DNA from: a virus
Taxonomy: Duplodnaviria; Heunggongvirae; Uroviricota; Caudoviricetes
Direction: 5' to 3' (one strand)
IMG/VR virus record: IMGVR_UViG_3300025316_000590
Location: 128,134-192,133 of that record
DNA length: 64,000 nt
Every line of letters begins with the position of its first letter. Position 1 is the first letter of the stretch. Below the pieces are notes generated by a model. That model saw only the letters and a program-made list of their open reading frames with translations, was not told the DNA's origin and made no database searches. Below, in pieces: positions 6,398 to 48,985 of the stretch. Position numbers and translations under genes: made by a program.

Positions 6398-6405
6398 GTG
6401 TCTGG
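6398..6405 (+). promoter_or_regulatory. GTGTCTGG motif instance upstream of polA
   Basis: 26 nt before ATG 6431. Confidence 0.35.
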
Positions 6406-6430
6406 TGGAGACTACAGGAGGAAAGTAACA

Positions 6431-9070
6431 ATGGGCGACGGTAAGTTTTTCACCAGAATAGACCTGAAGGCCCCGACAACGGGGAGGGTCAAGCCGCGGA
6501 CGACTGGCCGCGACGAGGCGTACTATAACGAGAGGGGCTGCGACGCATGCCCGCTGGTCGATACCTGCGGTGGAATCGAGGATTCCCAGGTGAAGCCATC
6601 GGGAACGTCGCGGCCCCTCATCTACGTTCTGGGCGAAGCCCCAGGCAAAGATGAGGCTGAAGCGGGTGAACCGTTTGTTGGCAAGGCGGGCCAAGAGCTA
6701 CGCCGCCATCTGCCCGATATCAGTATCTGTAGATTCAACAACCCGGTGCGAGCACGGCCCGAGAACAACCGTGTGCCGACGATGTCCGAGGTGGAGTCAT
6801 GCCGACAGCACCTCGTGGCTGATATCGAACGCACCAAGCCTGCGGCAATCCTTGCCTGCGGAGCAACTGCCCTGAGTTGGTTCATCGGCGGTGAGCCACG
6901 AATCACAACGTGGCGTGGGCGTCGCCTGCCCGTGCAGGTAGGGAGTCATCGGTGCTGGATGTATCCGGTGATGCATCCGTCCTTTATCATACGGCAGGGC
7001 GGTGACAAGGGTGGACCCGACCGCGAGGCTCGCCAGCATGCCGTCATGTTCAAGCACGATATCAAGCGGTGTTTCGCCGAGACCAAGAAGGGTATCGACC
7101 TGGGTGACCTGCCCTGGAACATCGATGCTCTGGAGGATGGCGTGGAACTGGCGACGCCCAAGCTCGGCGTCAAGTGGGTGGTGAAGATGCTAGAGGACGC
7201 CGCGAAGGCGAAGATCTGCGGCCTCGACCTGGAAACCAACCGCGTGCGTCCCTACGCCAGCGGATCCCGAATTCTGAGCATGGCCATCAGCACGCCCAAG
7301 ACGGCGTTTGCATTCCCGATAGGCCACAGTGATGCGTGGTGGTCGGCAGAGGACGAGATCGTACTGACGAGTGCCATCCGAGGATTCCTGCTAACCAAGA
7401 TGATGAAGGTTGTCCACAACGCCAGCTTCGATATGGAGTGGCTGCTGCGGTTCTACGGCGTGCAAATCCTGAAGGATGATCTGTGGAATACGTGGGGTTG
7501 CACGCAGAACCAAGCGTACACCCTCGACGAACGCAAAGAGGACAGGATGCAAAGCCTCGATAGCCTGTGCCTGGAACGCTTGGGCACGCGGCTGAAGAAG
7601 TACAGCGACGTCGATGCCAAGCGTGGTGAGGTGGCCGAGATCGGGAAGCTCCTGCGGTACAACGCCCTTGATGCTAAGTGCCATAGGCTTCTGTACGAAG
7701 AGCAGAACCGGGCACTGAAAGCGACGGGTATGCTGAACACGTATCTCGATCATGTTCGTCGCGTACCGTTCCTCGTCTTGATGCAGCACAAGGGCGTTCC
7801 CGTCAGCCAGCCGGTGGTCGAGGAACTGCTGACAGACACTAACACCAAGATCAGGTTGGTAACGCAATCCGCCCTTGATACGCCCGAGGCTCATCAGTAT
7901 CGCAATACATGGGGCACGCCGTTCATCATCAACGGTAAGGGCAGCCGCGAATGCCTGGAGAAGGTGTTCGGGCACATCGAAGCCCTGTACCGCAAGGACG
8001 CCAACGGCGAGGAAGTTTTCACGACCGATAGCAGCGTATTCAGCACTATTGATTCGCCACTGGCCCACAGTATCAGCGAGTTCCGCGAGTGGACGAAGAT
8101 ACGCGATACTTATCTTCTGCCCATGCGTGCCGGTGCGGGTAGCTTGGTTTACGAGGACGGCAATCTGCATGCCAACTTCAATGGGACGTTCACCGATACC
8201 GGGCGGCTGTCGTCTGACGGCCCGAATATGCAGAACTTTCCCAAGCGTGAACACGCCGAGGTGCGGAAGATGGTATCGGCCCCTGAAGGCTGGCTCATTG
8301 TATCCGCCGATATGAAGCAACTGGAAGTCTGCGTGGCGGCCCAAATGTCGGGCGACAAGCGGTTGCTGAAGGCTGTCCGCGAACGGGCCGACATTCACAT
8401 GAAGTACGCGATCATGCTCAGCGAGGGCGTGCCGTTGTATTTGGAACTGGTCGGTCACGGTGATATCAAGAAGGCACGCTCGGCGATCAAGAGCCTGATC
8501 ACCTTCCCGTTTCTGTACGGTGCCATCCATACGACTGCCTCCCGCAACGTTCTGGCCAGCATGTCACAGTTCGACCGCGACAGGGCCGAAAGCGTCCGCA
8601 AGAAGGTGGAGAGAACCTGCGAGGACATCGAAAAGGAATTCTGGATTGAGTATCGTGATGTCAAGGCATGGCAGAACAAGCTGATGTCGGACTACGAGAA
8701 GAACGGCTATGTCACCTGCATGAACGGGCGTCGCCGCCGCGGGCCGCTGTCGATCAACCAGATCGCTAATACGCCTATTCAGGGCAGTGCCAGCGACCTT
8801 GTGGTGGACGCCGGCAATCGGCTGGCTCAGAAGGGCCTGCGGGACAATAACATGGCCCTGGTGATGAATATGAATATTCACGACGACCTGACGACCTTCG
8901 CCAAGAAGGAGGCCGCCGACGACGTGATGGCCGAAATGGTTGAAACCATGTTGCACCCCGGTTACGAGAACTGGGACATCAAGGCATGCCCGCTGGGCGT
9001 GGAGGTTTCTATCGGTTCCAACTGGTCGAATCAGAAGGCTATCGGGACGTGGTATAGCGACGAAGCCTGA
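6431..9070 (+). CDS. polA: DNA polymerase I (family A) with N-terminal UDG family-4-like domain and 3'-5' exonuclease domain
   Basis: UDG-4 motifs GEAPGKDEAEAGEPFVGKAGQEL and HPSFI plus Cys cluster; Exo I CGLDLETN; Pol motif A DMKQLEV, motif B K..FPFLYG, motif C NIHDDL; RBS AGGAGG 9 nt before ATG 6431 (alternative GTG 6398 would add N-terminal DYRRKVT). Confidence 0.9.
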   Translation: MGDGKFFTRIDLKAPTTGRVKPRTTGRDEAYYNERGCDACPLVDTCGGIEDSQVKPSGTSRPLIYVLGEAPGKDEAEAGEPFVGKAGQELRRHLPDISICRFNNPVRARPENNRVPTMSEVESCRQHLVADIERTKPAAILACGATALSWFIGGEPRITTWRGRRLPVQVGSHRCWMYPVMHPSFIIRQGGDKGGPDREARQHAVMFKHDIKRCFAETKKGIDLGDLPWNIDALEDGVELATPKLGVKWVVKMLEDAAKAKICGLDLETNRVRPYASGSRILSMAISTPKTAFAFPIGHSDAWWSAEDEIVLTSAIRGFLLTKMMKVVHNASFDMEWLLRFYGVQILKDDLWNTWGCTQNQAYTLDERKEDRMQSLDSLCLERLGTRLKKYSDVDAKRGEVAEIGKLLRYNALDAKCHRLLYEEQNRALKATGMLNTYLDHVRRVPFLVLMQHKGVPVSQPVVEELLTDTNTKIRLVTQSALDTPEAHQYRNTWGTPFIINGKGSRECLEKVFGHIEALYRKDANGEEVFTTDSSVFSTIDSPLAHSISEFREWTKIRDTYLLPMRAGAGSLVYEDGNLHANFNGTFTDTGRLSSDGPNMQNFPKREHAEVRKMVSAPEGWLIVSADMKQLEVCVAAQMSGDKRLLKAVRERADIHMKYAIMLSEGVPLYLELVGHGDIKKARSAIKSLITFPFLYGAIHTTASRNVLASMSQFDRDRAESVRKKVERTCEDIEKEFWIEYRDVKAWQNKLMSDYEKNGYVTCMNGRRRRGPLSINQIANTPIQGSASDLVVDAGNRLAQKGLRDNNMALVMNMNIHDDLTTFAKKEAADDVMAEMVETMLHPGYENWDIKACPLGVEVSIGSNWSNQKAIGTWYSDEA

Positions 9071-10151: not shown

Positions 10152-10346
10152 AAGTTATCTTAGGATATTCCGATGACCGTACCGACAGCGTGAATCAGGA
10201 CTCCCCGCCGCGGATCGGTGAAGGTGTCCAGATAGACGGTGATAAAAGAAACTACCTCGTGGCCGATGTCGTCCACGTATACAGCAGAGACCAATACGGG
10301 CAATTGCGGCATGTAACCGTTGTCGCTGAACTTAAGGAGATACCCA

Positions 10347-11369
10347 ATGGCGGAACGCCGCAAACTGACACGCAACACGCAGGAATCGTTGATACCGGCC
10401 AAGGCTGAGAAGCCTGCACCATCGCCCGAAGCGGACTTTTGTAACATCTACCGTCCCGGCACGTTCGATGATATCCTCGGCCACGAGTCTATCAGTACCA
10501 GCGTCAAGGCAGTTCTGGATTCACGAAGCAAACGATGCTTCGTGTTCACCGGGCCGAGCGGCCTGGGCAAGACCACGTTCTCCCGCGCTATCAGGAATTA
10601 TGTGTGCGGCGGCAACGACCTGCTCATGGACTACAAGGAGGTCGACGGCCCGGTCTACAGCAGTGCCGAGAAGGCCCGCGAACTGGTCGAGTGGATGCGG
10701 TACAAGCCCATGATCGCCGGCGGCAAGAAGCTGATCTGCGTGGACGAGGCACATGCTTTGTCGGGGCAGGCCTGGCAGTGCCTGCTGAAGTCAGCCGAGG
10801 AGCCGCCACCCTACGGGTACTGGATCTTCTGCACCACGGTCAGTGGCAAGGTGCCGGCCACCATCATGACCCGCGGAGCGAGCTACAATCTCGAACCGCT
10901 GGATGCCAAGACCCTGTTCGTCCTGCTGCAAATCGTGAACGAAGAGCAGAAGCTGAACCTCGACGACGATATCCTTGATCTTATTGCCCACGAGTCGGAC
11001 GGCAGTCCGCGTATGGCCTTAACGAATCTCGACAAGTGTCGAACTGCCGAGGATCGCCGCGAGGCAGCGGTGCTGTTGCAGGGTGCGTATGAGAACCCCG
11101 ACCTGCGAGAGCTATGCCTTGCCATGAGCAAGGGCGGAATCTCCTGGGAGAAGGCCATGAAGGTGCTAGGCGGCCTGAGCAACCTCGACCCCGAGGGCAT
11201 CCGCATCCAGATCGTGCAGTACTTCGCGTCCATCGTCCGCAACGCCAAGAACCCAGCCGCGGCTGGTGCGGCCATCGAGGTGATGGACTGCTTCCTGCCG
11301 GGGCCGCTTTACTCTGCCAACAAACATGCCGAACTGTACGTCATGCTGGCCCGCGTACTGCTGAAATGA
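10347..11369 (+). CDS. AAA+ clamp loader ATPase (DnaX gamma/tau / T4 gp44-like)
   Basis: Walker A FTGPSGLGKTT, Walker B/DEAH-like LICVDEAHAL, sensor region; RBS GGAGATACCCAATG; N-terminus MAERRKLTRNT carries the recurrent basic motif. Confidence 0.75.
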   Translation: MAERRKLTRNTQESLIPAKAEKPAPSPEADFCNIYRPGTFDDILGHESISTSVKAVLDSRSKRCFVFTGPSGLGKTTFSRAIRNYVCGGNDLLMDYKEVDGPVYSSAEKARELVEWMRYKPMIAGGKKLICVDEAHALSGQAWQCLLKSAEEPPPYGYWIFCTTVSGKVPATIMTRGASYNLEPLDAKTLFVLLQIVNEEQKLNLDDDILDLIAHESDGSPRMALTNLDKCRTAEDRREAAVLLQGAYENPDLRELCLAMSKGGISWEKAMKVLGGLSNLDPEGIRIQIVQYFASIVRNAKNPAAAGAAIEVMDCFLPGPLYSANKHAELYVMLARVLLK

Positions 11370-11809
11370 TCAACAGCCTTACTGCTATCGAATGGACTCG
11401 CGTGCGGGCGTTCTGCCGGGACAAACGCCCGGATGAGATTACACCAAACGCCTTGTACCGGGCGGCACGTGGTTTGAAGGCTGGTAGCCGGAACACGAAC
11501 ATGGTGACCGATAGCATCATGCTGGACGCTGTGCGTATGTGGTGCGTGAAGCCCGAACCTCCCAAGGAGAAACCTGTGCCGAAGCACTTATACATTACCG
11601 TGACTGGCCCCGCGATGTCGGGGAAGTCGACTGTCGTTGAGGTGATCGCTCAGGCTCTGGCTCGTGCTGGGTTGAAGTGCGATGTGAATTACGGGGATGA
11701 CGGTCAGCCAACATCACCGTTGTCCCGACGCATTGATGCCATGAAGATTGCCGCACCGAATATCACTATTAACCAACGGCAGACCCAGCGTGAGCCTTCC
11801 AAAGATTAA
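11366..11809 (+). CDS. small P-loop NTPase/kinase-like protein
   Basis: ATGA overlap with clamp loader; Walker A VTGPAMSGKST. Confidence 0.4.
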   Translation: MINSLTAIEWTRVRAFCRDKRPDEITPNALYRAARGLKAGSRNTNMVTDSIMLDAVRMWCVKPEPPKEKPVPKHLYITVTGPAMSGKSTVVEVIAQALARAGLKCDVNYGDDGQPTSPLSRRIDAMKIAAPNITINQRQTQREPSKD

Positions 11810-12647
11810 GACCGTCGTGCCTTGGTTCGGATCCGCGAGAACGGTTGCCGAACGCATCGGTGAGCATCTGACCGGCTTCAAGTGGGTGGGTATACCGTTC
11901 TGCGGCGGATTGTCGGAGGTGCTGTACATCCAGGCCCGATCCATCGTCTGCAATGATATGCACCGGCACATGATCAACCTCGCCCAGGTGCTGAAGGACG
12001 CGACGCTGGGACCGGCCATGATCGAAAGTCTGCGGGACGAACTGTTCCATCCGGAGACGCTGGCACACGCTCAGGCTACCTCGGCTGACACGGACAATGA
12101 TCAGTTGATTCCTATGGGTGCCCGCGCGCTGAACTACGAGGCTGCGAGGCAGTACTTCATCGCCTGTTGGATGGGCCGCAGTGGGAATGCTGGCGGCGAC
12201 AGGGAGTTCACGGGCAACCTGTCGGTGCGGTGGAACGCGAACGGTGGTGATTCTAATACGCGGTATCGCTCCGCCGTCGAGAGCCTGGCTGCGTGGCGGA
12301 AGGTCATCCAGCGATGTAACTTCACGTGTATGGACTGCTTCGAGTTTCTAGAGACCTGCGAGGATGATCCCGAGCACGCCATCTACTGCGACCCGCCGTG
12401 GCCCGAAGATGGTGATGTGTATAGGCACAAGTTCACGCGAGAACATCATACGCGGCTGGCCCAAATCCTGACGCGGTTCCAGAACGCACGCGTGGTGGTA
12501 CGAATCAACACGTGTTCATTAGTGGATGAGTTGTACCCTCGTGGGTTGTGGAATTGGAATCAGCAAACGAGTCGCACGCAGGGCAACAATGATAAGGTAG
12601 AGGTGATTTTGGTTTATCGACCCCGAAGAAAAATTCAACGTGTCTAG
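11748..12647 (+). CDS. DNA N6-adenine methyltransferase (Dam/D12-class-like; DPPW motif)
   Basis: VVPWFGSA (cf. PYFGGK) and catalytic IYCDPPW; true start may be GTG ~11814 to avoid 62-nt overlap. Confidence 0.6.
   Translation: MPHRISLLTNGRPSVSLPKIKTVVPWFGSARTVAERIGEHLTGFKWVGIPFCGGLSEVLYIQARSIVCNDMHRHMINLAQVLKDATLGPAMIESLRDELFHPETLAHAQATSADTDNDQLIPMGARALNYEAARQYFIACWMGRSGNAGGDREFTGNLSVRWNANGGDSNTRYRSAVESLAAWRKVIQRCNFTCMDCFEFLETCEDDPEHAIYCDPPWPEDGDVYRHKFTREHHTRLAQILTRFQNARVVVRINTCSLVDELYPRGLWNWNQQTSRTQGNNDKVEVILVYRPRRKIQRV
12640..12647 (+). promoter_or_regulatory. GTGTCTAG motif instance overlapping MTase stop
   Basis: 22 nt before ATG 12669. Confidence 0.35.
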
Positions 12648-12668: not shown

Positions 12669-13178
12669 ATGCCAACCAACGAACGAACGACAACGCGAAG
12701 CAACCTTCGCATCGACAAGCACGCCCTGGATCGCGAGGTCTGCGAGCAGCCGGAGAAATCACTGAATGCCGGCCAGGAAGCTGCGAGGCTCGCCTCGGTG
12801 CGTGATTTTGCGAAGGACAGAATGAAGGTGGTCGCAGCCGAACGTGCCCTTGCTATCCGCGAGGAACTGACCGCCGAGGGTGGACGTGTTACGGAGGCTC
12901 AGATCGATGCTCGTCTCACGACAGACTCCGAACGAATCGATGCACATCACGAGTATATTCGAGCTGAACGTGACGCCGCGATGGCTGAGGCCGAACGTGA
13001 TGCATGGAAAGAACGAGGCTACATGCTCAAGTCTCTCGGCGATCTGTACGCCGCAGGCTATTGGGCCAACGCAAGCCTCGCCGGTGACCGACGTGCCGCC
13101 GAAGAACGTGCAGGTGACGAGGCCCGCCAAGCCGTGGCGGACCAGCGACGTCGCATGAACAGCACCTCGCGAGAATGA
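12669..13178 (+). CDS. hypothetical coiled-coil protein
   Basis: RBS GAGGAGAACGGTTATG after GTGTCTAG motif; ER/DA-rich heptads. Confidence 0.4.
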   Translation: MPTNERTTTRSNLRIDKHALDREVCEQPEKSLNAGQEAARLASVRDFAKDRMKVVAAERALAIREELTAEGGRVTEAQIDARLTTDSERIDAHHEYIRAERDAAMAEAERDAWKERGYMLKSLGDLYAAGYWANASLAGDRRAAEERAGDEARQAVADQRRRMNSTSRE

Positions 13179-13283
13179 TCGCGGAAGCCAACGGCAGATG
13201 TGTTTAGTGTAGGAGTAGCAAGCGGGACGATAAGGCGACCCGTAACGCTGGAACCAAGAACCTGTAACCAATGAGGTGAACCC

Positions 13284-14606
13284 ATGCCTACAAGAGGCAA
13301 CGACCGAAATCGCGGCGGTTTTCAATACCGCGAACGCTCATCGGCCACCGTACAGCGGCGTGCCAACCAGAGCGGTGGTGCTTTCGACTCGCTGTTCCGC
13401 AGCGATGTTGACGTCGTCTCCATCAAGGAGGGCGACTGGCGGCTGCGTATCTGCCCGCCGTCGTGGAACGATCATCTGCTGGAAGAACTGGGGATCGTCC
13501 ATCCCACACGTTCCGACGACTGGGATCCGGAAGGTGCCGATGACTTTGGCCTGGAGGTCTATGTTCACTTCAGCGTGGGCGCGGACAATCAGAAGTACTT
13601 CTGCCTGAAGAAGATGAAGGGCGAAGCCTGCCCGGTGTGCGAAGAGCGTGAACGCGTCGCCGCACTGGGTGCTGCTGGGATGTCGATGGCGGATAAGGAC
13701 TTCGACGATTACATCCGCAACCTTCAGCCGACAAAGCGGGTGATCGCATACGTGATCGACCGCGACGAACGCAACAGTGGCCCGCAGCTTTGGAACATGG
13801 CGTGGTCGATGGACCGCGACTTGAACAAGCTGAGCATGGACAAGGAAACCCGCGAAGCCGTGTGCATCGATCATCCCGAGGAGGGATTCGACATCGAGTT
13901 TTCTGTGACCGGCACCGGCATCAAGACGAAGTACGGTGGCATCGCCATTGCTCGCCGCAGCACGCCGCTGAGCGACAACCCTGACCGTCAGGACGACTGG
14001 TTGCGTACCATCGCCGAGAATCCGATTCCCGAGCTTCTCACCTTCCACGACTATGAGCACATCAAGGCTGCTCTGGCCGGGCAACGCCGCAACCGCGACG
14101 AAGGTGGAGATGATCGCCGAGGCGGTGGAAATCGCGGTGACGACCGCAGGCACGCCCGCGACGACGACGATGGTGATCGCGGCAGCCGTAGCCGAGCACG
14201 CGATATCGCCGACGACGATGACGACAACCGAGCCCGCCGACCGGCGATCCGGGGACGCGACGCTGACGTTGATGATGATCCGCCGCCCGCACGTGGGCGA
14301 GGACGCGACCGCGACGACCACGACGATGACCCGCCACCGGCCCGTGCTGGCCGCAACGGGGGCCGCAGCCGAGAAGCCGACGCGGACGTCGATGACGACC
14401 GTGACCCGCCGCCAGCCCGCGACACGGGCCACGACGACGCCCCGCCAGCCCGCCGCCGCAGCAGCCGTGCTGCCGAGGAGGCTACTGACCCACCGGCCCG
14501 CGAGACCCGCAGCCGAAGCCGCGACGCCGATGCCGACGACGCCCCGCCCGCACGCACGAGCTTGCGGGATCGCGTGGCCGAGGGACGCCGCCGCAGCGAA
14601 AGCTGA
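13284..14606 (+). CDS. single-stranded DNA-binding protein (T4 gp32-like) with long repetitive Arg/Asp-rich C-terminal tail
   Basis: Zn-binding-like CLKKMKGEACPVCEE plus H upstream as in gp32 core; position between MTase and recombinase; tail with 5x DD(D)PPPAR repeats. Confidence 0.5.
   Translation: MPTRGNDRNRGGFQYRERSSATVQRRANQSGGAFDSLFRSDVDVVSIKEGDWRLRICPPSWNDHLLEELGIVHPTRSDDWDPEGADDFGLEVYVHFSVGADNQKYFCLKKMKGEACPVCEERERVAALGAAGMSMADKDFDDYIRNLQPTKRVIAYVIDRDERNSGPQLWNMAWSMDRDLNKLSMDKETREAVCIDHPEEGFDIEFSVTGTGIKTKYGGIAIARRSTPLSDNPDRQDDWLRTIAENPIPELLTFHDYEHIKAALAGQRRNRDEGGDDRRGGGNRGDDRRHARDDDDGDRGSRSRARDIADDDDDNRARRPAIRGRDADVDDDPPPARGRGRDRDDHDDDPPPARAGRNGGRSREADADVDDDRDPPPARDTGHDDAPPARRRSSRAAEEATDPPARETRSRSRDADADDAPPARTSLRDRVAEGRRRSES
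14090..14580 (+). repeat. imperfect tandem coding repeats (RD-rich, DDDPPPAR units) within SSB-like gene tail
   Basis: repeating gacgacga/ccgccNgcccgc units; protein-level repeats DDDPPPARGRGRDRDD etc. Confidence 0.6.
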
Positions 14607-15170
14607 ACCGAATGATTGCGACTACCTGCACTAGAAGGAAAACCCGGCGACGGGTAGACTGGTGGGTAGCCGCAAGGCTTCGCCTCTCAGTCCCAGTGGG
14701 GGAGAGGCGGGTGGTGAGGGCTGGCCGGAATCAGGACGGATTGGGATGGACGCGCTTGAGCACACCTGATGGGCGTTCCACTCGACCGCAGCATGGCCTG
14801 TCAACGCAAGGCGGCAGGGTTGCCTGCGAGACCAGCCTTCACCACCCGATTGCGAAGCGACGGGTTTGTTCTTGGATCAGACGACGATGTGCTCGTAGAC
14901 GCGCTGGGTTTGCACTCCTACCTAGCATACTACGGTGATAGCGGAGGTGGTTAGATACGAACGATGCAGTAGGTAGCTCGTAGCGACCGATGGTATCGAA
15001 AACGGTTAAGCCAGCAATGCGTCAACGACATGCAGGCGCGAACGATATGATCGTTCTACGGCAGAATGAACAAGTGCAGGCATGCAGATGACGACGGTCT
15101 CTGAGGGGCCTGCACGTGCCCCGCCCGGCGGCGATTCCGAAATAGCCGGGCTCGCTTTATATGGAGATCA
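14607..15170. other. about 560-bp region without convincing coding potential; hairpin-rich (e.g. CCTCTCagtcccagtgggGGAGAGG); candidate ncRNA or replication origin
   Basis: only short low-complexity ORFs; unusual for this otherwise tightly packed genome. Confidence 0.3.
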
Positions 15171-15450
15171 TGAGCTATGGTTCCAGCGAGTCCGGTCACC
15201 TCGCCTGTCGATAATGACGATGCCGAGATCGATCTACTTCTTCGACAGGCGAGTGCTGACCGGATGGATCCAGGCGAACGCCTCCGTGGCCTACCGCATC
15301 CGTGCTTCTTCATGCCGTACTGGTTCAAGTACGATTCCATCAGGCAACGCTGTCCTCGCTGTGGTATGTCAGGCGTCGAGATGCGGATGCGGTATCAGAC
15401 TACGGAAACGGGAAAGCAACCGTGATCGTGTCTAGTCAGCCGAGGTAACT

Positions 15451-15609
15451 ATGAACTGGTTTTTAGACGTATGCGACGAGGCGGAGAAAGTTCACAAGAT
15501 TTGGACTTTCCCGTTCATCATTTTGACCGCACCCGGAATGTTGTATGTCTTCTTCATAGGACTGTGCATACGGGGCATCAGGAAGGTTAGATCATGGCGA
15601 AGAAAATAG
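15451..15609 (+). CDS. small membrane protein (52 aa) overlapping recombinase start
   Basis: ATG 24 nt after GTGTCTAG motif; hydrophobic FPFIILTAPGMLYVFFIGLCI. Confidence 0.3.
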   Translation: MNWFLDVCDEAEKVHKIWTFPFIILTAPGMLYVFFIGLCIRGIRKVRSWRRK

Positions 15610-16787
15610 TTCGACGACGTCTCGTAACGGCAACGCCCCCACCTCCGCAGCGTGAGGAAGAGGACGAAGACGTCGAGTCAACCGAAGATGAAACACCGGC
15701 CCGCGGGTCACGTGCAGCCCCACGTCGCACGGCTAAGGCTACTCGCCGCAAGACCGCCCGCGATACCGATGACGAGCCGTTGGTACGCGACGGTGGGGCC
15801 TACGGGCTCACGGGCGACATGGAGGATATCCGTGTTAAACGATTCGGTTCGGGCTGTACCCTTCTGGACTGCGAGATTGGTGGTGGTGGTGGCGGAGCGT
15901 TCCCTGAAGGCCGCGTGGTGAACTTCGCTGGCTGGCAGTCAACGAACAAGACAGGCGTATGCATCGAGGCGTGTGCCAACTTTTCCATCGCCTATCCGAC
16001 CGGCATCACGCGATATAACGACGCCGAGGCCGCGTTCGATGTGAATTATGCCCGCCGCATGGGACTGCCGATGGACAGAATCAGCTTCGTCGAGGAGTGC
16101 CGTATCGTCGAGGTGTTCTTTCAGGACGTGAAGGACTTCATTGCCGAGTGTGAACGCCGTCGCGTGCCAGGCTTGTATATCATCGATAGCCTTGATGCCC
16201 TGAGCGATCAGGCCGAACTGGATGGCGGTATGGACAAGGCCAGTTACGGTATGGCGAAGGCCAAACGCATGTCACAGTTCTTCCGCACCCTGGCCGGCCC
16301 TTTGAACTCCGCCAAGGTGACCCTGATAGTCATCTCGCAGCTACGCGACAAGCTGAATGTATCGTTCGGCGAGAAGGCGACGCGTGCCGGCGGCAAAGCC
16401 CTGGACTTCTACGCTTCGTGGGTGGTGTGGCTGTCGCATATTGGCCAGATCAAACGCTCGGTCAACGGCATCGAACGCGTGGTCGGTGTTCGCATCAAGG
16501 CCAAGTGCAAGAAGAACAAGTGTGGCCCGCCGTTCCGCGAGTGCGAGTTCCCCGTGATCTTTGACTACGGCATCGATGACATCGAATCGATGGCAGACTG
16601 GTTAGTTGAGGTGAAGAAGTGGGAACTGTTCGATGAACGAAAACCTGGAACGTACCTGAAGTGGCTGGACAAACAGCCGCGTGAAATGTACATTAGCGAA
16701 TCCAAGCGTATGTCCGCAGTGGTGCGGGCCGAGTGGGACAAGATCGAGGAGTCATTCTCGCCGAACTTCTCGAAGTACGGTAGCTAA
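15594..16787 (+). CDS. RecA-family recombinase (T4 UvsX-like)
   Basis: Walker A-like GWQSTNKTG (cf. UvsX GPSKSFKS), Walker B LYIIDSLDAL, L2-like region; N-terminal basic extension MAKKIVRRRLVTATPPPP. Confidence 0.8.
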   Translation: MAKKIVRRRLVTATPPPPQREEEDEDVESTEDETPARGSRAAPRRTAKATRRKTARDTDDEPLVRDGGAYGLTGDMEDIRVKRFGSGCTLLDCEIGGGGGGAFPEGRVVNFAGWQSTNKTGVCIEACANFSIAYPTGITRYNDAEAAFDVNYARRMGLPMDRISFVEECRIVEVFFQDVKDFIAECERRRVPGLYIIDSLDALSDQAELDGGMDKASYGMAKAKRMSQFFRTLAGPLNSAKVTLIVISQLRDKLNVSFGEKATRAGGKALDFYASWVVWLSHIGQIKRSVNGIERVVGVRIKAKCKKNKCGPPFRECEFPVIFDYGIDDIESMADWLVEVKKWELFDERKPGTYLKWLDKQPREMYISESKRMSAVVRAEWDKIEESFSPNFSKYGS

Positions 16788-32548: not shown

Positions 32549-33408
32549 TGGCAATCCGCCGCCCGGATCGATCATTGTTCGATGTCGCTACCACACGGGC
32601 CAGCCGTCAAGTCTATCTCGGCATCGACGGTACGAACTGGCTGCACACTATCTACCATGCCAACAACGGGCACGATGTGCTGGAGACTGTGGTGCGCCGC
32701 ATCGACGCCCTGACGCGGAACCTACAGCCGAAGCTGGTGGTGGTGTGCCTCGACCGCAGGAGCTTCCGGCATGATCTCTATCCGCCCTATAAGGCCAAAC
32801 GGGGCGAACGCCCGCACGACGAGAACCTGCACTTCGTACTGGAGAATGCTCTGGGCGTGCTGAAGGACTGGGCCGTGGTGGTTCAGGTAAACGGTTTTGA
32901 AGCGGATGATTGCCTAGCTGCCTTAGCCGCCAGGGCGGTCGCCGTGGGCAGTGATGCCGTGCTCGCGTCGCCCGACAAAGACCTCAACCAGTGCTTGGTT
33001 GCCGACCGCGTAACGATCATCAAGAAGTTCCACCTGTTGGGATCGGGTATCACAAACATTGAGTGGATGACGCCGCAGCTTCTTCTCGATCAGAAGGGCC
33101 TGACGCCGCGTCAGTGGATTGATTATCAGACCCTCGCTGGTGATTCTGGAGACGGTGTGCCTGGTTGTCCGGGATGGGGCGAGAAGACGGCCAGCGAGGC
33201 TATTCGGCAGTGGGGCAGCATCGACGCTATTTACGATAACATCGATTCAGTTAAGGTCAGCGCGTCCCGCAGGGCCGCCCTGCTGAAGTTCCGCGATGAT
33301 GGACTGGCAATCATGCGGCAACTGGTTACGCTCCGCACCGATGTGGACGAAGTAAAGCGAATCTTCGTGTCTAGACGTCGTATAGGAGCAAGTCATGCCC
33401 GAACGTAG
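32545..33408 (+). CDS. 5'-3' exonuclease / flap endonuclease (PolI N-terminal-like, RNase H-like)
   Basis: YLGIDGTNWLH, GFEADDCLAALA, H3TH-like LAGDSGDGVPGCPGWGEKTA. Confidence 0.75.
   Translation: MMAIRRPDRSLFDVATTRASRQVYLGIDGTNWLHTIYHANNGHDVLETVVRRIDALTRNLQPKLVVVCLDRRSFRHDLYPPYKAKRGERPHDENLHFVLENALGVLKDWAVVVQVNGFEADDCLAALAARAVAVGSDAVLASPDKDLNQCLVADRVTIIKKFHLLGSGITNIEWMTPQLLLDQKGLTPRQWIDYQTLAGDSGDGVPGCPGWGEKTASEAIRQWGSIDAIYDNIDSVKVSASRRAALLKFRDDGLAIMRQLVTLRTDVDEVKRIFVSRRRIGASHART
33367..33374 (+). promoter_or_regulatory. GTGTCTAG motif instance
   Basis: about 21 nt before ATG 33395. Confidence 0.35.
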
Positions 33409-34324
33409 ACGCATCCAGACACCGCCTGTAGTTCGACGACGTATGAACACAGGTGGTCCGCCACCCGTTCCGCCGTCCCTACGCCCCGAACCGATGCGTG
33501 CCGGTCAATTCGGTATGAGGATCGCGAGCCCTGACCCGGGCAACATCAACGTCGACTTGATGAACCGATTCATCAACATCAACGGTGAGCCGGCGACGGT
33601 TAGGAACTGTACAGCTTATGTGTGTAACGGTCAGGTGGTGCTGAACATGGAGGTGGCCTACCCGCCAGGGCAGCGTGCCGGTATCGCCGGGCTGTGGGTT
33701 CCACCGGATAACGTACCGCTTCGCGGACAGGAGATCAGCGGCGTAGCCTTTGACGAGGCCGTAAACCTCGACAGGCGGCTTCAGTGGCATAGTACGGAAA
33801 CGGGCCGCGTATCTTCCGCAAGGCCCAACGTGAGCAACGTGCCGCGTTCAGGCGGGCGGGCAGCCCCGTTACCGCTGGGTGGCCCCGAGAACCTAGCGTT
33901 CCACATGGGAAACGGTCAATCGGGAGTCATCTGCGAGGCCCAACCGCGATGCCCCGCCATCGGTGAAGATTTGCGTGGCGTGGCCCGCGGGCGAGTCATG
34001 GACATGTCCCATGCCCCCAACCGGGAACGCCGCGAGATGATATACTACATCCGCGAGCGAGAACTGCTGATCGCCTTCTACCGCGAGGATCCCGACTACA
34101 TCGTGGTCGGCATCGACCCCGAATTGCCGCACGGGGCTGTCATACGCAGCGTTCACCACGAGCCGCATCGTGCGGCGTTTGCGTTCATTGTATATCATCC
34201 ATCGTTCGATATCGTACCCGATAGCCAATCCCCGCCCAACGCTGGCGTAATGCCGTTTCAGTACCGCACCCTGACGCGAGCCGGTGACGGGAGATATGAT
34301 ATCGGAAATGCACCGCTTGAGTAG
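33395..34324 (+). CDS. hypothetical protein, N-terminal MPERRRIQTPP motif; shares YPPG motif with 39481 and 42455 proteins
   Basis: ATG 28 nt after GTGTCTAG motif with AGGAG RBS; VAYPPGQRAG. Confidence 0.4.
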   Translation: MPERRRIQTPPVVRRRMNTGGPPPVPPSLRPEPMRAGQFGMRIASPDPGNINVDLMNRFININGEPATVRNCTAYVCNGQVVLNMEVAYPPGQRAGIAGLWVPPDNVPLRGQEISGVAFDEAVNLDRRLQWHSTETGRVSSARPNVSNVPRSGGRAAPLPLGGPENLAFHMGNGQSGVICEAQPRCPAIGEDLRGVARGRVMDMSHAPNRERREMIYYIRERELLIAFYREDPDYIVVGIDPELPHGAVIRSVHHEPHRAAFAFIVYHPSFDIVPDSQSPPNAGVMPFQYRTLTRAGDGRYDIGNAPLE

Positions 34325-39480: not shown

Positions 39481-40038
39481 ATGCCGAGTCACTATATAAT
39501 ATGCCCGCAACGGAACGGTGACATAACCGAAGCCCGTATGCTAGTGCAGAACTACGGTTTGGTGGTTGGTGAATACGACGTATTCATGCCAACAGCCAAT
39601 TATGTAGGTGACTGCGTGTATCTGAGCGTGTTGCCATCGAGTGAAGCCTACCAGAAGATGCGGGAGTGGATCGACCGCCGGCGGCACACGAACAGGCCAG
39701 AGTCGGCAATCGCCGCAGCCTGCCCGTCGAACCAGCGTGCCTGGGTGCTGTACTATCCGCCCGGCAGATCTTATCAGGGTGGCAGGGAAGTCGAAAACTG
39801 TGAATTATCGGTTCAAATACTACAGGCCCTGGAAAGCTGCGACCGCTGGCCGGTGGGTGTAGCCCTTCCTGCCTCCGAGCCTGGTGAAATAGGATGGCGG
39901 CTGGAGAGCGTAGGTCCGCCTGTGATTCCGCAGTGGATCGAAACCAACGGTGGCCAGTTATGGACGCCAGCGATGGAAGACGCACCCAGGCCGGTGCGGC
40001 GACGTATTCAAACATTACCCGATAGTGGTGAAATCTAA
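39481..40038 (+). CDS. hypothetical protein, paralog of 42455..43438; C-terminus RRRIQTLPDSGEI
   Basis: shared YGL..GEY and (W)VL(Y/T)YPPG(R/E)S.QG.R.V.N motifs with 42455 protein. Confidence 0.45.
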   Translation: MPSHYIICPQRNGDITEARMLVQNYGLVVGEYDVFMPTANYVGDCVYLSVLPSSEAYQKMREWIDRRRHTNRPESAIAAACPSNQRAWVLYYPPGRSYQGGREVENCELSVQILQALESCDRWPVGVALPASEPGEIGWRLESVGPPVIPQWIETNGGQLWTPAMEDAPRPVRRRIQTLPDSGEI

Positions 40039-42454: not shown

Positions 42455-43438
42455 ATGCCACAGCAGAACCCAAACAATCCTGAACCGATGAACGGGCCGC
42501 GGTACGCAGTGCATCCCGGCTACGTCACCAGCATGTCTGACGGCGACCGCCATTTCATCGACGCCATGCACCTTGTGTCCCTCTACGGCCTGCGAACCGG
42601 AGAATACATCGTTATTCAGGAAGGGCTGCCGTTTGGTCAGCAGATTAGTGATACTGACAGTATTATTCATCTCTACCCGCAGCGGAACCGTGAGGACTAC
42701 GGTCATGCGGCCAACATCATCGAAGCCCGTCGACGTGGATCCCGACTGGATATTCCGCCTATGTATGGAGCCCGGCCACCCGAGCGGCGACAGCATCGCT
42801 TGGGGCCAACACCGCCACCACCGACGCCCGAGGCCATAGCCGCTGTTACCACCGACGCCGCACGGCGGGCTAATGAGTCGCTGGGAATACCGGGCAGCTT
42901 GCTGACGCAGGACAGTAACTATTCGAGCGCACACGCTGACGCGATGTCATTCAGCAACCTTTTCGGTCGTGGTGACGTACCGCGAGCGGAGTTTATACGC
43001 CGACTGGAAGCAGCAGTTGAGCAGCAACATCAGCCCTATATTACAGAAGCCGATCTGCGACGACTGCGATCCCACAGCCAGGTGACGCCCGCCGAGCCGA
43101 ACGTCCAGCGGCTTCCCGTGGGCTACACGCTGCCGCGAACGTTCGTTAATGCTGAACAACGTATTATTGCCCACGTCGAGGCAAATACCGACCGCGTGAT
43201 ATGGGTGCTGACATACCCGCCCGGTGAGTCTCGCCAGGGCAGCCGAGTTGTCAGCAACAGCCAACTGGCTATCACGATACTTGCCGGCCTGATGGACAGA
43301 GAAACCGAGCATGGCATCGTCCTGCCGGTCGGCTGGACGTTGAACCGTCTTGGTCCGGAACCAGTCAAACGAAGAAAGATTACACGCGGCAAGCGAACCG
43401 TCGTGCGACGAAGGATTCAGTCCACGGGAGAACTGTAA
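42455..43438 (+). CDS. hypothetical protein, paralog of 39481..40038; C-terminus KRRKITRGKRTVVRRRIQSTGEL
   Basis: RBS GTAGGAGCTTAGCGTCATG; shared YGLRTGEY and VLTYPPGESRQGSRVVSN motifs. Confidence 0.45.
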   Translation: MPQQNPNNPEPMNGPRYAVHPGYVTSMSDGDRHFIDAMHLVSLYGLRTGEYIVIQEGLPFGQQISDTDSIIHLYPQRNREDYGHAANIIEARRRGSRLDIPPMYGARPPERRQHRLGPTPPPPTPEAIAAVTTDAARRANESLGIPGSLLTQDSNYSSAHADAMSFSNLFGRGDVPRAEFIRRLEAAVEQQHQPYITEADLRRLRSHSQVTPAEPNVQRLPVGYTLPRTFVNAEQRIIAHVEANTDRVIWVLTYPPGESRQGSRVVSNSQLAITILAGLMDRETEHGIVLPVGWTLNRLGPEPVKRRKITRGKRTVVRRRIQSTGEL

Positions 43439-47270: not shown

Positions 47271-47816
47271 ATGCTAGAACGACGACGAATTCAAACAAGT
47301 CCTGAAGAAATTAGGAAGGCTAGAAAGAGGTACACAAATCGCCAGTGTTACCTACGGAATCGTGAATCTATAAATATGCGTAGTGCAAAAAGATGGGCAG
47401 AACTTTGGAAGAATGATCCAGACAAGGCAAGGGCGATAATTGGCAAGAGTCAACGCAAGCATCGAGATCGTCGTCACGTAGATGTTTCCATAGCGTTAGA
47501 GTGTATGATGCGAAACGCACGTGCTCGTAGTGCCAGACGTAACCTGGATTGCAACATATCGCTAGAATACCTGCGTCAGGTTTATGATTTACAGGGCGGT
47601 GTTTGTGCTATAACGGCTATGCCGTTTGAGCAAACTACTGACTACGGAAAGATGTCGTTAGATCGTATTGATCCATCGTGTGGTTACGTTCAGGGTAACA
47701 TTAGAATTGTTTGGTTACTAGTGAATAACGCTATGGGTGTCTGGGGTGAGGGGCCTTTACTTCGAGTTGCAGAGGCGATTGTGGAACGGAATTTAGTAAG
47801 GAATCAACCTAAATGA
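47271..47816 (+). mobile_element. putative phage homing-type endonuclease gene (SLDRIDPS.GY..GN.RIV motif), AT-richer insert; N-terminus MLERRRIQT
   Basis: low-GC codon usage relative to flanks; sits between a truncated and a full copy of the same gene 5' end. Confidence 0.45.
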
Positions 47817-48662: not shown

Positions 48663-48985
48663 ATAAGTCTGGGCCGCCGGTGGTCATGGTTCGGGACAAG
48701 TTCGGCCAGTACACGAGGTCCGAGACCGGCGAGGCTCCCGGCCATTTGCCGTGGGGCGAGGAAGACGCCGGTTTGCCCGCCTGGGACAAGCCCCTGGCCG
48801 ATGTATCGGCCTTAACTACCCGAACGCCAGCCCAGGCCCCGTCACGACCCGCTGTGACGCCGCCTGTGGCCGCACGTGAGCCCGTCGCCCGCAGGTCGAT
48901 AGAACGGCTGGCCAGTGACTTTGACCGCCTGTGGGGCCAAACAGCGGCCCCTGCCACCCCAACGCGAAGGAGGATCCAAACATGA
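48611..48985 (+). CDS. hypothetical protein ending ...PTRRRIQT*
   Basis: C-terminal recurrent basic motif; Pro/Ala-rich linker. Confidence 0.35.
   Translation: MHDIDQATAEIIFHGLINKSGPPVVMVRDKFGQYTRSETGEAPGHLPWGEEDAGLPAWDKPLADVSALTTRTPAQAPSRPAVTPPVAAREPVARRSIERLASDFDRLWGQTAAPATPTRRRIQT

What the first reader, a model, noticed from the sequence alone, without database searches (positions are those of the whole stretch)
13284..14606. gp32-like SSB with an atypical long repetitive Arg/Asp-rich tail (DDDPPPAR x5)
The N-terminal 270 aa look like an OB-fold/Zn-binding SSB (CLKKMKGEACPVCEE). The last 170 aa are almost pure R/D/G/A/P low complexity, with five DD(D)PPPAR units at 14090..14580.
Canonical SSB tails are short, acidic and end in a hydrophobic tip. 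This mixed RD-rich tail resembles phase-separating RD/RG-type IDRs. It could act as a multivalent docking platform, perhaps for the basic RRRIQT peptides.
Basis: partly seen in the sequence, partly recalled or inferred. Interest (0 to 1): 0.55.

Follow-up and report, generated by a model that had tools for sequence, protein, structure and literature searches.

The report
Phage gp32-type SSB, long mixed-charge tail
This gene encodes the phage's single-stranded-DNA-binding protein, and its long disordered Arg/Asp tail with a basic helical tip proves to be normal for a very large, unstudied clade of phage SSBs rather than a one-off oddity.

Summary
ORF 13284..14606 (+) encodes 440 aa. Residues ~41-266 are confidently modelled, and the six best PDB matches are all T4 or RB69 gp32. 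The His-Cys3 zinc ligands are in place. The gene lies in a module of DNA polymerase, clamp-loader-like ATPase, SSB and RecA that is syntenic with Vibrio phage SSP002 and Edwardsiella phage ZHS.

The last ~174 aa are predicted disordered. They are a near-neutral polyampholyte (40 R, 0 K, 49 D/E) with six P(P)PAR units and alternating acidic and basic blocks. They end in a predicted amphipathic basic helix, SLRDRVAEGRRR.

The tail is atypical only compared with T4 gp32 (48 aa, acidic). Within its own clade it is the rule. The clade has 7119 50%-identity clusters. In 210 sampled members the median tail is 132 aa with about 0.54 charged residues and net charge near zero. A directional acid-Pro-base unit is 2.7-fold enriched, and about half the members carry the same C-terminal tip motif. 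Close relatives keep the tail under purifying selection, with whole units gained or lost.

Phase separation, hub function and docking of RRRIQT peptides remain untested. The tail fails the published formal definition of an Arg mixed-charge domain. My verdict is an ordinary function with an undescribed tail architecture, of moderate interest.

The parts
13273..13278 (+). Shine-Dalgarno GAGGTG, 5 nt upstream of the ATG
   Evidence: Read directly from the sequence.
13284..14606 (+). Complete SSB gene (440 aa plus stop codon)
   Evidence: ORF list. PHROG 34306 at 2.8e-34 and PHROG 1192 'SSB' at 2.6e-11. A near-identical protein, P0001, differs at one residue (I204L).
13284..13403 (+). N-terminal basic segment, aa 1-40 (net charge +5). 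Family-conserved residues are F13, Y15, R18, R26, Q29, GG and F34-D35. It is a candidate cooperativity segment.
   Evidence: Conserved columns in A1. pLDDT 53-83 with a helix at aa 20-27. Charge. The proposed role is inferred only by analogy with the T4 gp32 N-domain.
13404..14081 (+). gp32-type OB/Zn core, aa 41-266
   Evidence: pLDDT is mostly above 90. Foldseek PDB hits are 8gme, 2a1k, 1gpc and 2atq at E 1.7e-7 to 7e-6, with target-normalised TM-score 0.52-0.63. hhalign against T4 gp32 aligns 183 columns at E 0.0017. Pfam gp32 scores 23.2 bits, below the 26.8-bit cut-off.
13566..13640 (+). Zinc-ligand motif H95-x11-C107-x8-C116-x2-C119
   Evidence: Regex comparison with T4 H64/C77/C87/C90. 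CPVC aligned by hhalign. The pattern is present in 148 of 210 family members.
14082..14552 (+). Disordered blocky polyampholyte tail, aa 267-423. The figures below are for the whole tail (aa 267/271-440), which includes the tip.
   Evidence: Most of aa 268-420 has pLDDT below 50. Fraction of charged residues 0.52, net charge per residue about -0.05, 40 R and 0 K, 49 D/E. Charge blockiness z is about 3-4, and the charge autocorrelation period is about 17-18 aa. dN/dS is 0.23-0.33 against P0002 and P0003.
14261..14555 (+). Six acid-P(P)PAR-base units. The PPAR cores lie at 14280-14294, 14331-14345, 14406-14420, 14442-14453, 14490-14501 and 14544-14555.
   Evidence: Shuffle test: 6 observed against 0.04 expected. 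The relatives carry 7 (P0002) and 6 (P0003) units, with whole-unit indels.
14553..14603 (+). C-terminal tip, aa 424-440 (RTSLRDRVAEGRRRSES). It is a predicted amphipathic basic helix that matches the family tip motif S-[IL]-[RK]-[DE]-R-L-x-x-[ML]-R-x-R-R.
   Evidence: Helix at aa 427-439 with pLDDT 68-84. SLRDRVAEGRRR is invariant in P0001-P0003. The tip HMM scores 12.3 bits here. The motif is found in 93-109 of 210 members, against at most 2 % of shuffles and 0-1 of 210 internal segments.
6398..9070 (+). Context: family-A DNA polymerase with an N-terminal UDG-like domain
   Evidence: Pfam DNA_pol_A 1.5e-50, UDG 1.8e-17, exo 1.2e-11.
10320..11369 (+). Context: clamp-loader-like AAA+ ATPase
   Evidence: Pfam DNA_pol3_delta2 2.9e-11. 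The syntenic gene is annotated as a clamp loader in SSP002 and ZHS.
12669..13178 (+). Context: conserved 169-aa protein of unknown function immediately upstream of the SSB
   Evidence: PHROG 1069 at 1.2e-12. A homologue is present in 67 of 80 related viral loci.
15594..16787 (+). Context: RecA/UvsX-like recombinase with a ~65-aa mixed-charge N-terminal extension
   Evidence: Pfam RecA 7.7e-40 and PHROG 97 UvsX-like 1.3e-56. A RecA gene lies downstream on the same strand in 69 of 80 related loci.

Best explanation
This is the phage's replication/recombination single-stranded-DNA-binding protein, a remote member of the T4 gp32 structural family. I read it as four parts:
1. A short basic N-terminal segment (aa 1-40).
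2. A zinc-containing OB-fold core (aa 41-266) that binds ssDNA.
3. A disordered tail of about 160 aa made of alternating acidic and arginine-rich blocks. Six of the acid-to-base junctions are marked by a Pro-Pro-Ala-Arg unit.
4. A conserved amphipathic basic helix at the extreme C-terminus.

The SSB identity is well supported by inference from fold, motif and synteny. ssDNA binding itself was not tested.

The proposed tail mechanism is inferred, not shown. The tail replaces the short acidic C-domain of gp32 with a long, nearly neutral, multivalent electrostatic tether. Its acidic blocks can fold back on the DNA-binding groove or pair with basic blocks of neighbouring tails. When the protein coats ssDNA, many tails then associate with each other and with charged segments of partner proteins. 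This raises cooperativity and local concentration, possibly to the point of condensate formation. The C-terminal helix, rather than the repeats, is the specific docking element for a partner or for a neighbouring SSB.

The pure Arg/Asp make-up is the G+C-rich extreme of a clade-wide K/R plus D/E design.
For: SSB identity:
- AF2 core pLDDT above 90. Foldseek top six hits are T4 or RB69 gp32 at E 1.7e-7 to 7e-6, and the next hit is at 0.016. BFVD hits are viral SSBs.
- Zn ligand pattern. hhalign aligns 183 columns with CPVC matched. PHROG SSB at 2.6e-11.
- Synteny of polymerase, clamp loader, unknown protein, SSB and RecA in cultured phages and in 59-71 of 80 viral loci.
- A remote gp32-fold protein, the TG1 RDF, was shown experimentally to bind ssDNA (PMC11795197).

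The tail is functional and not junk:
- dN/dS is 0.23-0.33, against 0.14-0.17 in the core.
- The tail is retained with unit indels in P0002 and P0003.
- In 210 clade members the median tail is 132 aa, with median FCR 0.535 and median NCPR -0.08. Charge blockiness has a median z of 4.15, and 73 % exceed z = 2.
- The acid-acid-Pro-base unit occurs 437 times, against 159 +/- 14 in shuffles. The reverse orientation is depleted, at 92 against 147 +/- 12.
- Residue identity varies while charge pattern persists: tail R/(R+K) ranges from 0 to 1 across the clade.

Tip:
- Predicted helix with pLDDT 68-84. It is invariant in close relatives. It is position-specific and present in about half the clade.

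Analogies:
- The T4 gp32 C-domain binds partner proteins and its N-domain gives cooperativity (PMC12893549).
- E. coli SSB phase-separates (PMC7584906), and the papers listed deal with the roles of its disordered linker and C-terminal tip.
- Arg/Asp mixed-charge sequences condense in a length-dependent, Arg-dependent manner (10.1101/771592).
Against: - No biochemical property can be tested here. ssDNA binding, autoinhibition, cooperativity and condensation are all inferred.
- Sequence-level membership in gp32 is weak. Pfam scores below its gathering cut-off. PDB sequence and profile searches find no gp32. hhalign probability is only 15.7 %.
- The tail does not meet the published MCD threshold. 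It is slightly net negative, and Greig et al. report that negative net charge disfavours condensation.
- Only summary output was available for the AF2 model, with no coordinates or PAE. Whether the tip docks on the core is therefore unknown.
- The idea that RecA carries a matching polyampholyte segment does not generalise.
Confidence: 0.6

Rival explanations
1. The tail is only a flexible spacer plus autoinhibitory flap, as in the classic gp32, T7 gp2.5 or E. coli SSB model. In this reading the repeats have no multivalent or condensing role. Only the C-terminal helix and the acidic blocks matter.
For: Tail length and unit number vary freely, from 24 to 271 aa and 6/7/6 units in close relatives. 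This is typical of entropic linkers. The tip is the only strictly conserved tail element in close relatives. The gp32 C-domain paradigm supports it (PMC12893549).
Against: A pure spacer would not need conserved charge blockiness (median z 4.15). It would also not need a directional acid-Pro-base unit enriched 2.7-fold with the reverse orientation depleted. About half the sampled members lack a detectable tip but still have the polyampholyte tail.
Confidence: 0.22
2. The tail is a largely neutral low-complexity expansion driven by replication slippage and high G+C (codons for R, D, A, G, P). It is tolerated and has no specific function.
For: G+C rises to 0.74-0.77 in the tail against 0.58 for the window. 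Whole units are gained and lost between close relatives. Tail amino-acid identity (63-68 %) is lower than core identity (78-90 %). Tail R/(R+K) correlates with core R/(R+K), rho 0.40.
Against: dN/dS is 0.23-0.33, well below 1, at dS 0.77-1.19. TRF finds no tandem DNA array. The same architecture persists in K/E-rich relatives at 30-45 % core identity. The tip motif and the unit orientation are conserved.
Confidence: 0.1
3. The tail is a multivalent docking platform for the basic RRRIQT peptides found at the termini of several other proteins of this phage.
For: The RRRIQ[TSN] peptides are real and conserved at the peptide level, at the termini of six ORFs. The tail has acidic blocks that could attract them.
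Against: There is no co-localisation, because the carriers lie at 33-60 kb. Four of the six carriers have no PHROG hit, one hits only a family of unknown function, and one is endonuclease-like. The polyampholyte tail is clade-wide, including phages where this peptide was not examined. A generic acidic-basic attraction is not evidence of specificity. The question was not tested computationally because no complex prediction tool was available.
Confidence: 0.04
4. The protein has a gp32 fold but is not primarily a replicative SSB. It could be, for example, a moonlighting regulator such as a recombination directionality factor, or an RNA-binding protein.
For: gp32-fold proteins do moonlight as RDFs (PMC11795197). 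A PhiC31 RDF structure and a Microbacterium phage RDF appear as weak fold hits.
Against: No other SSB candidate was noticed in the replication module. SSB-RecA adjacency holds in 69 of 80 loci. The RDF hits are much weaker (E 0.004-0.016) than the gp32 hits. I did not search the window for an integrase.
Confidence: 0.04

Closest known systems
Bacteriophage T4 / RB69 gp32 (PDB 1GPC, 8GME, 2A1K; Pfam PF08804)
   Same: Same core fold, an OB fold with a Zn subdomain. Same His-Cys3 ligand order with nearly the same spacing. Both have a basic N-terminal segment and a disordered C-terminal region. Both sit among replication and recombination genes.
   Different: Only 10-14 % identity in the fold alignments, and below the Pfam cut-off. 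The T4 C-domain is 48 aa, acidic (NCPR -0.25) and Ser-rich, and ends DDLLNDL. The tail here is 174 aa, near-neutral (NCPR -0.04) and Arg/Asp/Pro-rich, and ends in a basic helix. There is no KRKST 'LAST' motif at the N-terminus.
Uncharacterised homologues in cultured phages: Vibrio phage SSP002 FDH27_gp072 (YP_009598663.1, Mardecavirus) and Edwardsiella phage vB_EpM_ZHS ZHS_54 (UNA00810.1)
   Same: Same clade, at 30-36 % identity over the core. Same synteny. Both have RD/RG/S-rich charged tails ending in a basic ...MRR(N/R)R... segment, the very end being RERVRGMRRNR in SSP002 and GEMRRRREGDDDDRPRRRRED in ZHS.
   Different: Those proteins carry an extra helical insert in the tail (TWESVHEMT..ELEDLID..LADWICEEMKL). 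ZHS also has an RD-rich N-terminal extension. SSP002 lacks the Cys ligands. Neither has PPAR units of the form seen in the window.
E. coli SSB C-terminal tail (intrinsically disordered linker plus acidic tip)
   Same: Same logic of core, long disordered linker and short conserved terminal docking element. The E. coli SSB phase-separates (PMC7584906). Pro-containing linker motifs have been proposed, and disputed, as interaction sites (PMC7145534, PMC10164576).
   Different: Different OB family (a homotetramer, against a gp32-type protein). The E. coli linker is G/Q/P-rich and weakly charged, and its tip is acidic-hydrophobic (DDDIPF). Here the linker is about 52 % charged and the tip is basic. 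A few clade members do end in DDIPF or PPFDED.
[quoted passage not shown]
   Same: Arg plus Asp dominated, near 1:1 charge ratio, disordered, and Arg rather than Lys (40 R, 0 K).
   Different: Maximum FCR in a 60-aa window is 0.617, below the 0.7 threshold. The charges are arranged in blocks of about 8-9 residues with Pro at the junctions, not as dipeptide repeats. The setting is a bacterial virus. Condensation is untested.
TG1 gp25 / PhiC31 gp3 (gp32-fold SSBs moonlighting as recombination directionality factors)
   Same: A remote gp32-like Zn/OB fold recognised by structure. ssDNA binding was verified for TG1 gp25. A short disordered terminal peptide is predicted to contact the polymerase and other SSB copies (PMC11795197).
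   Different: Only a weak fold match here (E 0.016). Their docking peptide is N-terminal and hydrophobic, and they have no long polyampholyte tail.

Membership tests
T4 gp32 family (Pfam PF08804) | Match to the Pfam gp32 HMM at or above the gathering score | tested here: not met
   23.2 bits against a cut-off of 26.8, E 7.7e-5, aa 101-218. Only 2 of the 68 homologues listed carry a precomputed PF08804 hit.
T4 gp32 family (Pfam PF08804) | gp32 core fold (OB fold with Zn-binding subdomain) | tested here: met
   AF2 core pLDDT above 90. The Foldseek top six PDB hits are all gp32 of T4 or RB69, at probability 1.0, with about 243 aligned columns and target-normalised TM-score 0.52-0.63.
T4 gp32 family (Pfam PF08804) | His-Cys-Cys-Cys zinc ligands in gp32 order and spacing | tested here: met
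   H95-x11-C107-x8-C116-x2-C119 against T4 H64-x12-C77-x9-C87-x2-C90. CPVC is aligned by hhalign.
T4 gp32 family (Pfam PF08804) | Basic N-terminal cooperativity domain with the (K/R)3(S/T)2 LAST motif | tested here: inconclusive
   aa 1-40 are net +5 and family-conserved, but there is no KRKST-type motif there. An RRRSS string occurs in the tail instead.
T4 gp32 family (Pfam PF08804) | Short acidic C-terminal domain | tested here: not met
   The tail is 174 aa with NCPR -0.04 and 40 Arg. The T4 C-domain is 48 aa with NCPR -0.25.
T4 gp32 family (Pfam PF08804) | Cooperative ssDNA binding | not testable with these tools
   Requires EMSA or fluorescence titration.
Clade of PHROG 34306 / Mardecavirus-type gp32-like SSBs | Sequence match to the clade | tested here: met
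   PHROG 34306 at E 2.8e-34. 68 homologues at E up to 1e-187. The profile search finds 7119 clusters, and this protein scores 2.9e-106.
Clade of PHROG 34306 / Mardecavirus-type gp32-like SSBs | Synteny: PolA, clamp-loader-like ATPase, PHROG 1069 protein, SSB, RecA | tested here: met
   In 80 viral loci, RecA is present in 69, the clamp loader in 71, Pol in 59 and the PHROG 1069 protein in 67. The window differs by a Dam methylase insertion and a 990-bp gap before RecA.
Clade of PHROG 34306 / Mardecavirus-type gp32-like SSBs | Long blocky polyampholyte tail ending in the basic tip motif | tested here: met
   Tail FCR 0.52 against a clade median of 0.535. Blockiness z 3.96. Tip HMM score 12.3 bits.
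Bacterial SSB-type tail (disordered linker plus acidic tip) | Disordered linker after the OB domain | tested here: met
   Most of aa 268-420 has pLDDT below 50.
Bacterial SSB-type tail (disordered linker plus acidic tip) | Acidic-hydrophobic C-terminal tip (D-D-D-I-P-F type) | tested here: not met
   The protein ends ...SLRDRVAEGRRRSES, and the tail has no aromatic residue. Some clade members (P0005, P0010) do end in IPF.
Arg-enriched mixed-charge domain (Greig et al.) | FCR of at least 0.7 in a 60-aa window | tested here: not met
   The maximum is 0.617, at aa 286-345.
Arg-enriched mixed-charge domain (Greig et al.) | Positive:negative ratio of 1:1 +/- 0.3, with Arg rather than Lys | tested here: met
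   40 positive to 49 negative over the tail, and 16:21 in the best window. There are 40 Arg and no Lys.
Arg-enriched mixed-charge domain (Greig et al.) | Length- and Arg-dependent condensation | not testable with these tools
   Needs purified protein or live-cell imaging.

The most novel reading that the evidence does not exclude
A clade of thousands of phage gp32-type SSBs has swapped the canonical short acidic tail for a blocky Arg/Lys-Asp/Glu polyampholyte. The new tail is built from directional acid-Pro-base units and capped by a basic docking helix. On this reading the tail drives electrostatic self-association, or coacervation, of SSB-coated ssDNA into a phage replication/recombination compartment that recruits clients through the tip. 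It would be a bacterial-virus counterpart of eukaryotic mixed-charge condensate scaffolds.
Probability: 0.2. Interest if true: 0.7.

Novelty: new variant of a known kind. Interest (0 to 1): 0.4.

Why it matters
Current SSB models rest on tails that are acidic and end in a hydrophobic tip. These include the gp32 C-domain, the T7 gp2.5 tail and the E. coli SSB tip.

This gene belongs to a very large clade that breaks that rule in a consistent way. The clade has 7119 clusters at 50 % identity and includes cultured Vibrio and Edwardsiella phages, where the protein is mostly annotated 'hypothetical'. Its tails are near-neutral and block-patterned, they show a conserved directional acid-Pro-base unit, and they end in a basic helical tip.

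If the tail controls cooperativity, partner recruitment or condensation, it offers a natural, easily truncated system for studying how charge patterning in a disordered tail tunes SSB function. At the least, it allows thousands of 'hypothetical proteins' next to phage RecA genes to be annotated as SSBs.

Tried and rejected
1. Sequence searches of the PDB, with the protein and with the 68-sequence profile, found no gp32. Homology had to be established by fold and by a weak hhalign match.

2. Tandem Repeats Finder found only two trivial short arrays. The PPAR units are not a tandem DNA repeat, so a slippage-only origin is unlikely.

3. I looked for an RNA element, tRNA, promoter or terminator in or after the tail and found nothing above background. 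The long alternative-frame and minus-strand ORFs over the tail are what I would expect as shadow ORFs in 74-77 % G+C repeats. I did not pursue them, because the SSB frame shows purifying selection.

4. I tested formal membership in the Arg mixed-charge-domain class. It fails on FCR.

5. I asked whether the neighbouring RecA shares a matching polyampholyte N-terminal extension. It does in the window (about 65 aa), and shorter ones exist in ZHS and SSP002. In 69 related loci, however, the pre-core segment is short (by eye typically about 25 aa), only modestly charged and mildly basic. I dropped this as a general feature.

6. I looked for a link to the RRRIQT peptides. The peptides are real, but I found no evidence connecting them to the SSB.

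7. My first regex for the tip motif was too narrow, finding 5 of 68. I replaced it with an alignment and an HMM with shuffled and internal controls. The HMM seeds were picked by regex, so the 44-52 % prevalence is approximate.
Full report
**Observation**

A GAGGTG ribosome-binding site lies 5 nt upstream. The quoted zinc motif is present.

For the last 170 residues the composition is D 24.7 %, R 23.5 %, A 13.5 %, G 9.4 % and P 9.4 %. There is no lysine and no aromatic residue.

At the DNA level repeat finder sees five imperfect 33-nt copies at 67-79 % identity, and Tandem Repeats Finder sees no true array. At the protein level there are six P(P)PAR units between nt 14280 and 14555. This compares with 0.04 expected in 20,000 shuffles of the tail. 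The stretch 14090-14260 is R/D/G-rich but lacks PPAR.

**Identity of the protein**

Sequence evidence for gp32 is weak:
- Pfam gp32 scores 23.2 bits, below the 26.8-bit cut-off.
- There is no PDB hit by sequence or by profile.
- PHROGs give 2.8e-34 to family 34306 (unknown function) and 2.6e-11 to family 1192 (SSB).

Structure settles the question. An AlphaFold2 model built on 68 homologues has pLDDT above 90 over most of aa 41-266. The six best PDB matches are all T4 or RB69 gp32, at E 1.7e-7 to 7e-6, probability 1.0 and about 243 aligned columns. The next hit is at E 0.016. The viral structure library returns annotated SSBs, including one from a T4-like Acinetobacter phage.

The zinc ligands H95-x11-C107-x8-C116-x2-C119 mirror T4 H64-x12-C77-x9-C87-x2-C90. 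hhalign of the family profile against T4 gp32 aligns 183 columns with CPVC on CPVC. Its score is weak: E 0.0017 and probability 15.7 % against a single-sequence template.

**Genomic context**

The gene lies in a replication/recombination module:
- a UDG-fused family-A polymerase (6398-9070);
- a clamp-loader-like AAA+ ATPase (10320-11369);
- a Dam methylase (11748-12647);
- a conserved 169-aa protein (12669-13178);
- the SSB;
- a RecA/UvsX-like recombinase (15594-16787).

The same order occurs in Edwardsiella phage vB_EpM_ZHS and in Vibrio phage SSP002. In 80 related viral contigs RecA is present in 69, the clamp loader in 71, the polymerase in 59 and the 169-aa protein in 67. RecA usually lies directly downstream of the SSB on the same strand. 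The polymerase's nearest cultured relatives are the same Vibrio (MAR10, SSP002 group) and Edwardsiella phages, at about 29 % identity. The window therefore comes from an uncultured, distant relative of that group.

I regard 'this is the phage SSB' as about 90 % likely. ssDNA binding itself is inferred. A remote gp32-fold protein, TG1 gp25, was shown experimentally to bind ssDNA (PMC11795197).

**The tail**

Most of residues 268-420 have pLDDT below 50. Residues 427-439 form a predicted helix with pLDDT 68-84.

The tail is a strong polyampholyte. Its fraction of charged residues is 0.52 and its net charge per residue is about -0.05 (40 R; 49 D/E). The charges are more segregated than in shuffles, with z about 3-4 and kappa about 0.22-0.27. 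The charge autocorrelation has a period of about 17-18 residues, meaning acidic and basic blocks of about 8-9 residues alternate.

For comparison, the T4 gp32 C-domain is 48 aa, has NCPR -0.25 and ends DDLLNDL.

**Conservation**

The two closest relatives come from other metagenome contigs: P0002 (81 % over aa 1-275) and P0003 (79 %). Both keep the tail. It is 63-68 % identical and has seven and six Pro units respectively, with whole-unit insertions and deletions. The terminus SLRDRVAEGRRR is invariant. Nei-Gojobori dN/dS is 0.14-0.17 in the core and 0.23-0.33 in the tail, at dS 0.5-1.2. The tail is therefore under purifying selection, though more relaxed than the core.

**The clade**

A profile search of 1.84 billion cluster representatives finds 7119 clusters at E <= 1e-3 and 1209 at E <= 1e-30. 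I sampled 210 members. They show the following features.
- **Tail size and charge.** Tails have a median of 132 aa (range 24-271), median FCR 0.535 and median NCPR -0.08.
- **Blockiness.** The median z is 4.15, and 73 % of members exceed 2.
- **Directional unit.** Acid-acid-Pro(1-3)-base occurs 437 times, against 159 +/- 14 in shuffles. The reverse order occurs 92 times, against 147 +/- 12. With strict Pro-Pro the counts are 65 forward and 6 reverse. Proline therefore marks the acid-to-base junction specifically.
- **Residue choice.** Tail R/(R+K) spans 0 to 1 and D/(D+E) spans 0.1 to 0.88. Tail R/(R+K) correlates with core R/(R+K), rho 0.40. The window sits at the extreme, with 1.0 and 0.86. 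The 'RD' flavour thus looks like the high-arginine extreme of a general K/R-D/E design, and I assume it tracks G+C content.
- **Tip motif.** The consensus is S-[IL]-[RK]-[DE]-R-L-x-x-[ML]-R-x-R-R. It scores above threshold in 93-109 of 210 C-termini, in at most 2 % of shuffled termini, and in 0-1 of 210 internal tail segments. The window scores 12.3 bits.
- **Extra modules.** Subsets of the clade carry additional elements inside the tail: a helical TWESIHEMT..ELEDLID..DLADWICEEMKL module, a CPAC..GGFCVC zinc-ribbon-like module, or a bacterial-type DDIPF/PPFDED ending.

The window's tail is thus a typical, long (28th longest of 210) and unusually Arg/Asp-pure member of its clade. It is not an outlier.

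**Mechanism**

What is shown: the fold, the zinc motif, the synteny, the predicted disorder, the charge pattern, the conserved unit and tip, and purifying selection.

What is inferred: by analogy with gp32, where the C-domain binds partners and the N-domain gives cooperativity (PMC12893549), with E. coli SSB, which phase-separates (PMC7584906), and with Arg/Asp mixed-charge domains, which condense in a length- and Arg-dependent way (10.1101/771592). From these I propose that the tail is a multivalent electrostatic tether. Its acidic blocks can occupy the DNA groove or pair with basic blocks of neighbouring tails, so SSB-coated ssDNA self-associates and concentrates partner proteins. The C-terminal helix provides the specific docking contact.

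I give this tail mechanism about 40 %. The spacer/autoinhibitor-only alternative gets about 22 %, a neutral expansion about 10 %, and RRRIQT docking about 4 %.

Caveats. The tail fails the formal MCD criterion, with maximum FCR 0.617 against the required 0.7. It is slightly net negative, which Greig et al. found to disfavour condensation. No coordinates or PAE were available to see where the tip helix sits.

**Literature**

Full-text searches found no description of this clade's tails. Cultured-phage homologues are annotated 'hypothetical protein' or 'single-stranded DNA-binding domain-containing protein'.

**Verdict**

The function is ordinary: a phage SSB. The tail architecture is consistent across the clade, apparently undescribed, and departs from the canonical acidic-tip model. 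I classify it as a new variant of a known kind and score interest at 0.4.

Noticed in passing
window 39997-40014, 43406-43423, 48965-48982, 60176-60193 (C-terminal); 33404-33421, 47280-47297 (N-terminal): The peptide RRRIQ[T/S/N] recurs at the extreme termini of six + strand ORFs. Four copies are C-terminal, often followed by xPxxGGE[IL]-stop, and two are N-terminal (M-x-E-RRRIQT). Codons differ between copies, so the conservation is at the peptide level. One carrier is endonuclease VII/HNH-like (PHROG 3322, 1.4e-21). Four carriers have no PHROG hit and one matches only a family of unknown function.
   Followed up: partly
window 14607-15593: There is an unusual gap of about 990 bp between the SSB and RecA, which are adjacent in most related phages. 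It contains no tRNA, Rfam or terminator signal. The 82-aa ORF at 15177..15425, which has a CPRC motif, is conserved in the relative contig L001 at 71 % aa and 75 % nt identity (L001 5812-6063). It is probably a real small gene.
   Followed up: partly
window 15594-15790: The RecA/UvsX-like protein has a ~65-aa mixed-charge N-terminal extension (PPPPQREEEDED...DETPARGSRAAPRR...) that includes an acid-Pro-base unit like those of the SSB tail. Relatives have much shorter, mildly basic N-termini.
   Followed up: yes
window 6398-9070: The family-A DNA polymerase carries an N-terminal uracil-DNA-glycosylase-superfamily domain (Pfam UDG 1.8e-17, aa 73-204) fused to the 3'-5' exonuclease and polymerase domains.
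   Followed up: no
L003 3758-5128 (Edwardsiella phage ZHS_54); L004 3983-5122 (Vibrio phage SSP002 gp072): The ZHS homologue has RD-rich charged low-complexity regions at both ends, including an N-terminal extension of about 80 aa. The SSP002 homologue has lost the Cys zinc ligands. 62 of 210 clade members lack the H..C..C..C pattern, so zinc binding is not universal in the clade.
   Followed up: partly
relatives P0014, P0019-P0022 and others; P0004, P0007, P0008, P0016, P0018: Two small, probably folded modules are inserted in the disordered tails of clade subsets. One is a helical module, TW(E/D)S(I/V)HEMT..ELEDLIDQEKLDINP..DLADWICEEMKLKK, found by regex in 55 of 210 members. The other is a CPAC..GGFCVC zinc-ribbon-like module, found in 6 of 210. 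Neither was characterised.
   Followed up: no
window 11748-12647: A D12-class N6-adenine DNA methyltransferase (Pfam 1.3e-09) is inserted in the replication module between the clamp-loader-like gene and the 169-aa protein. It is absent at this position in ZHS and SSP002.
   Followed up: no
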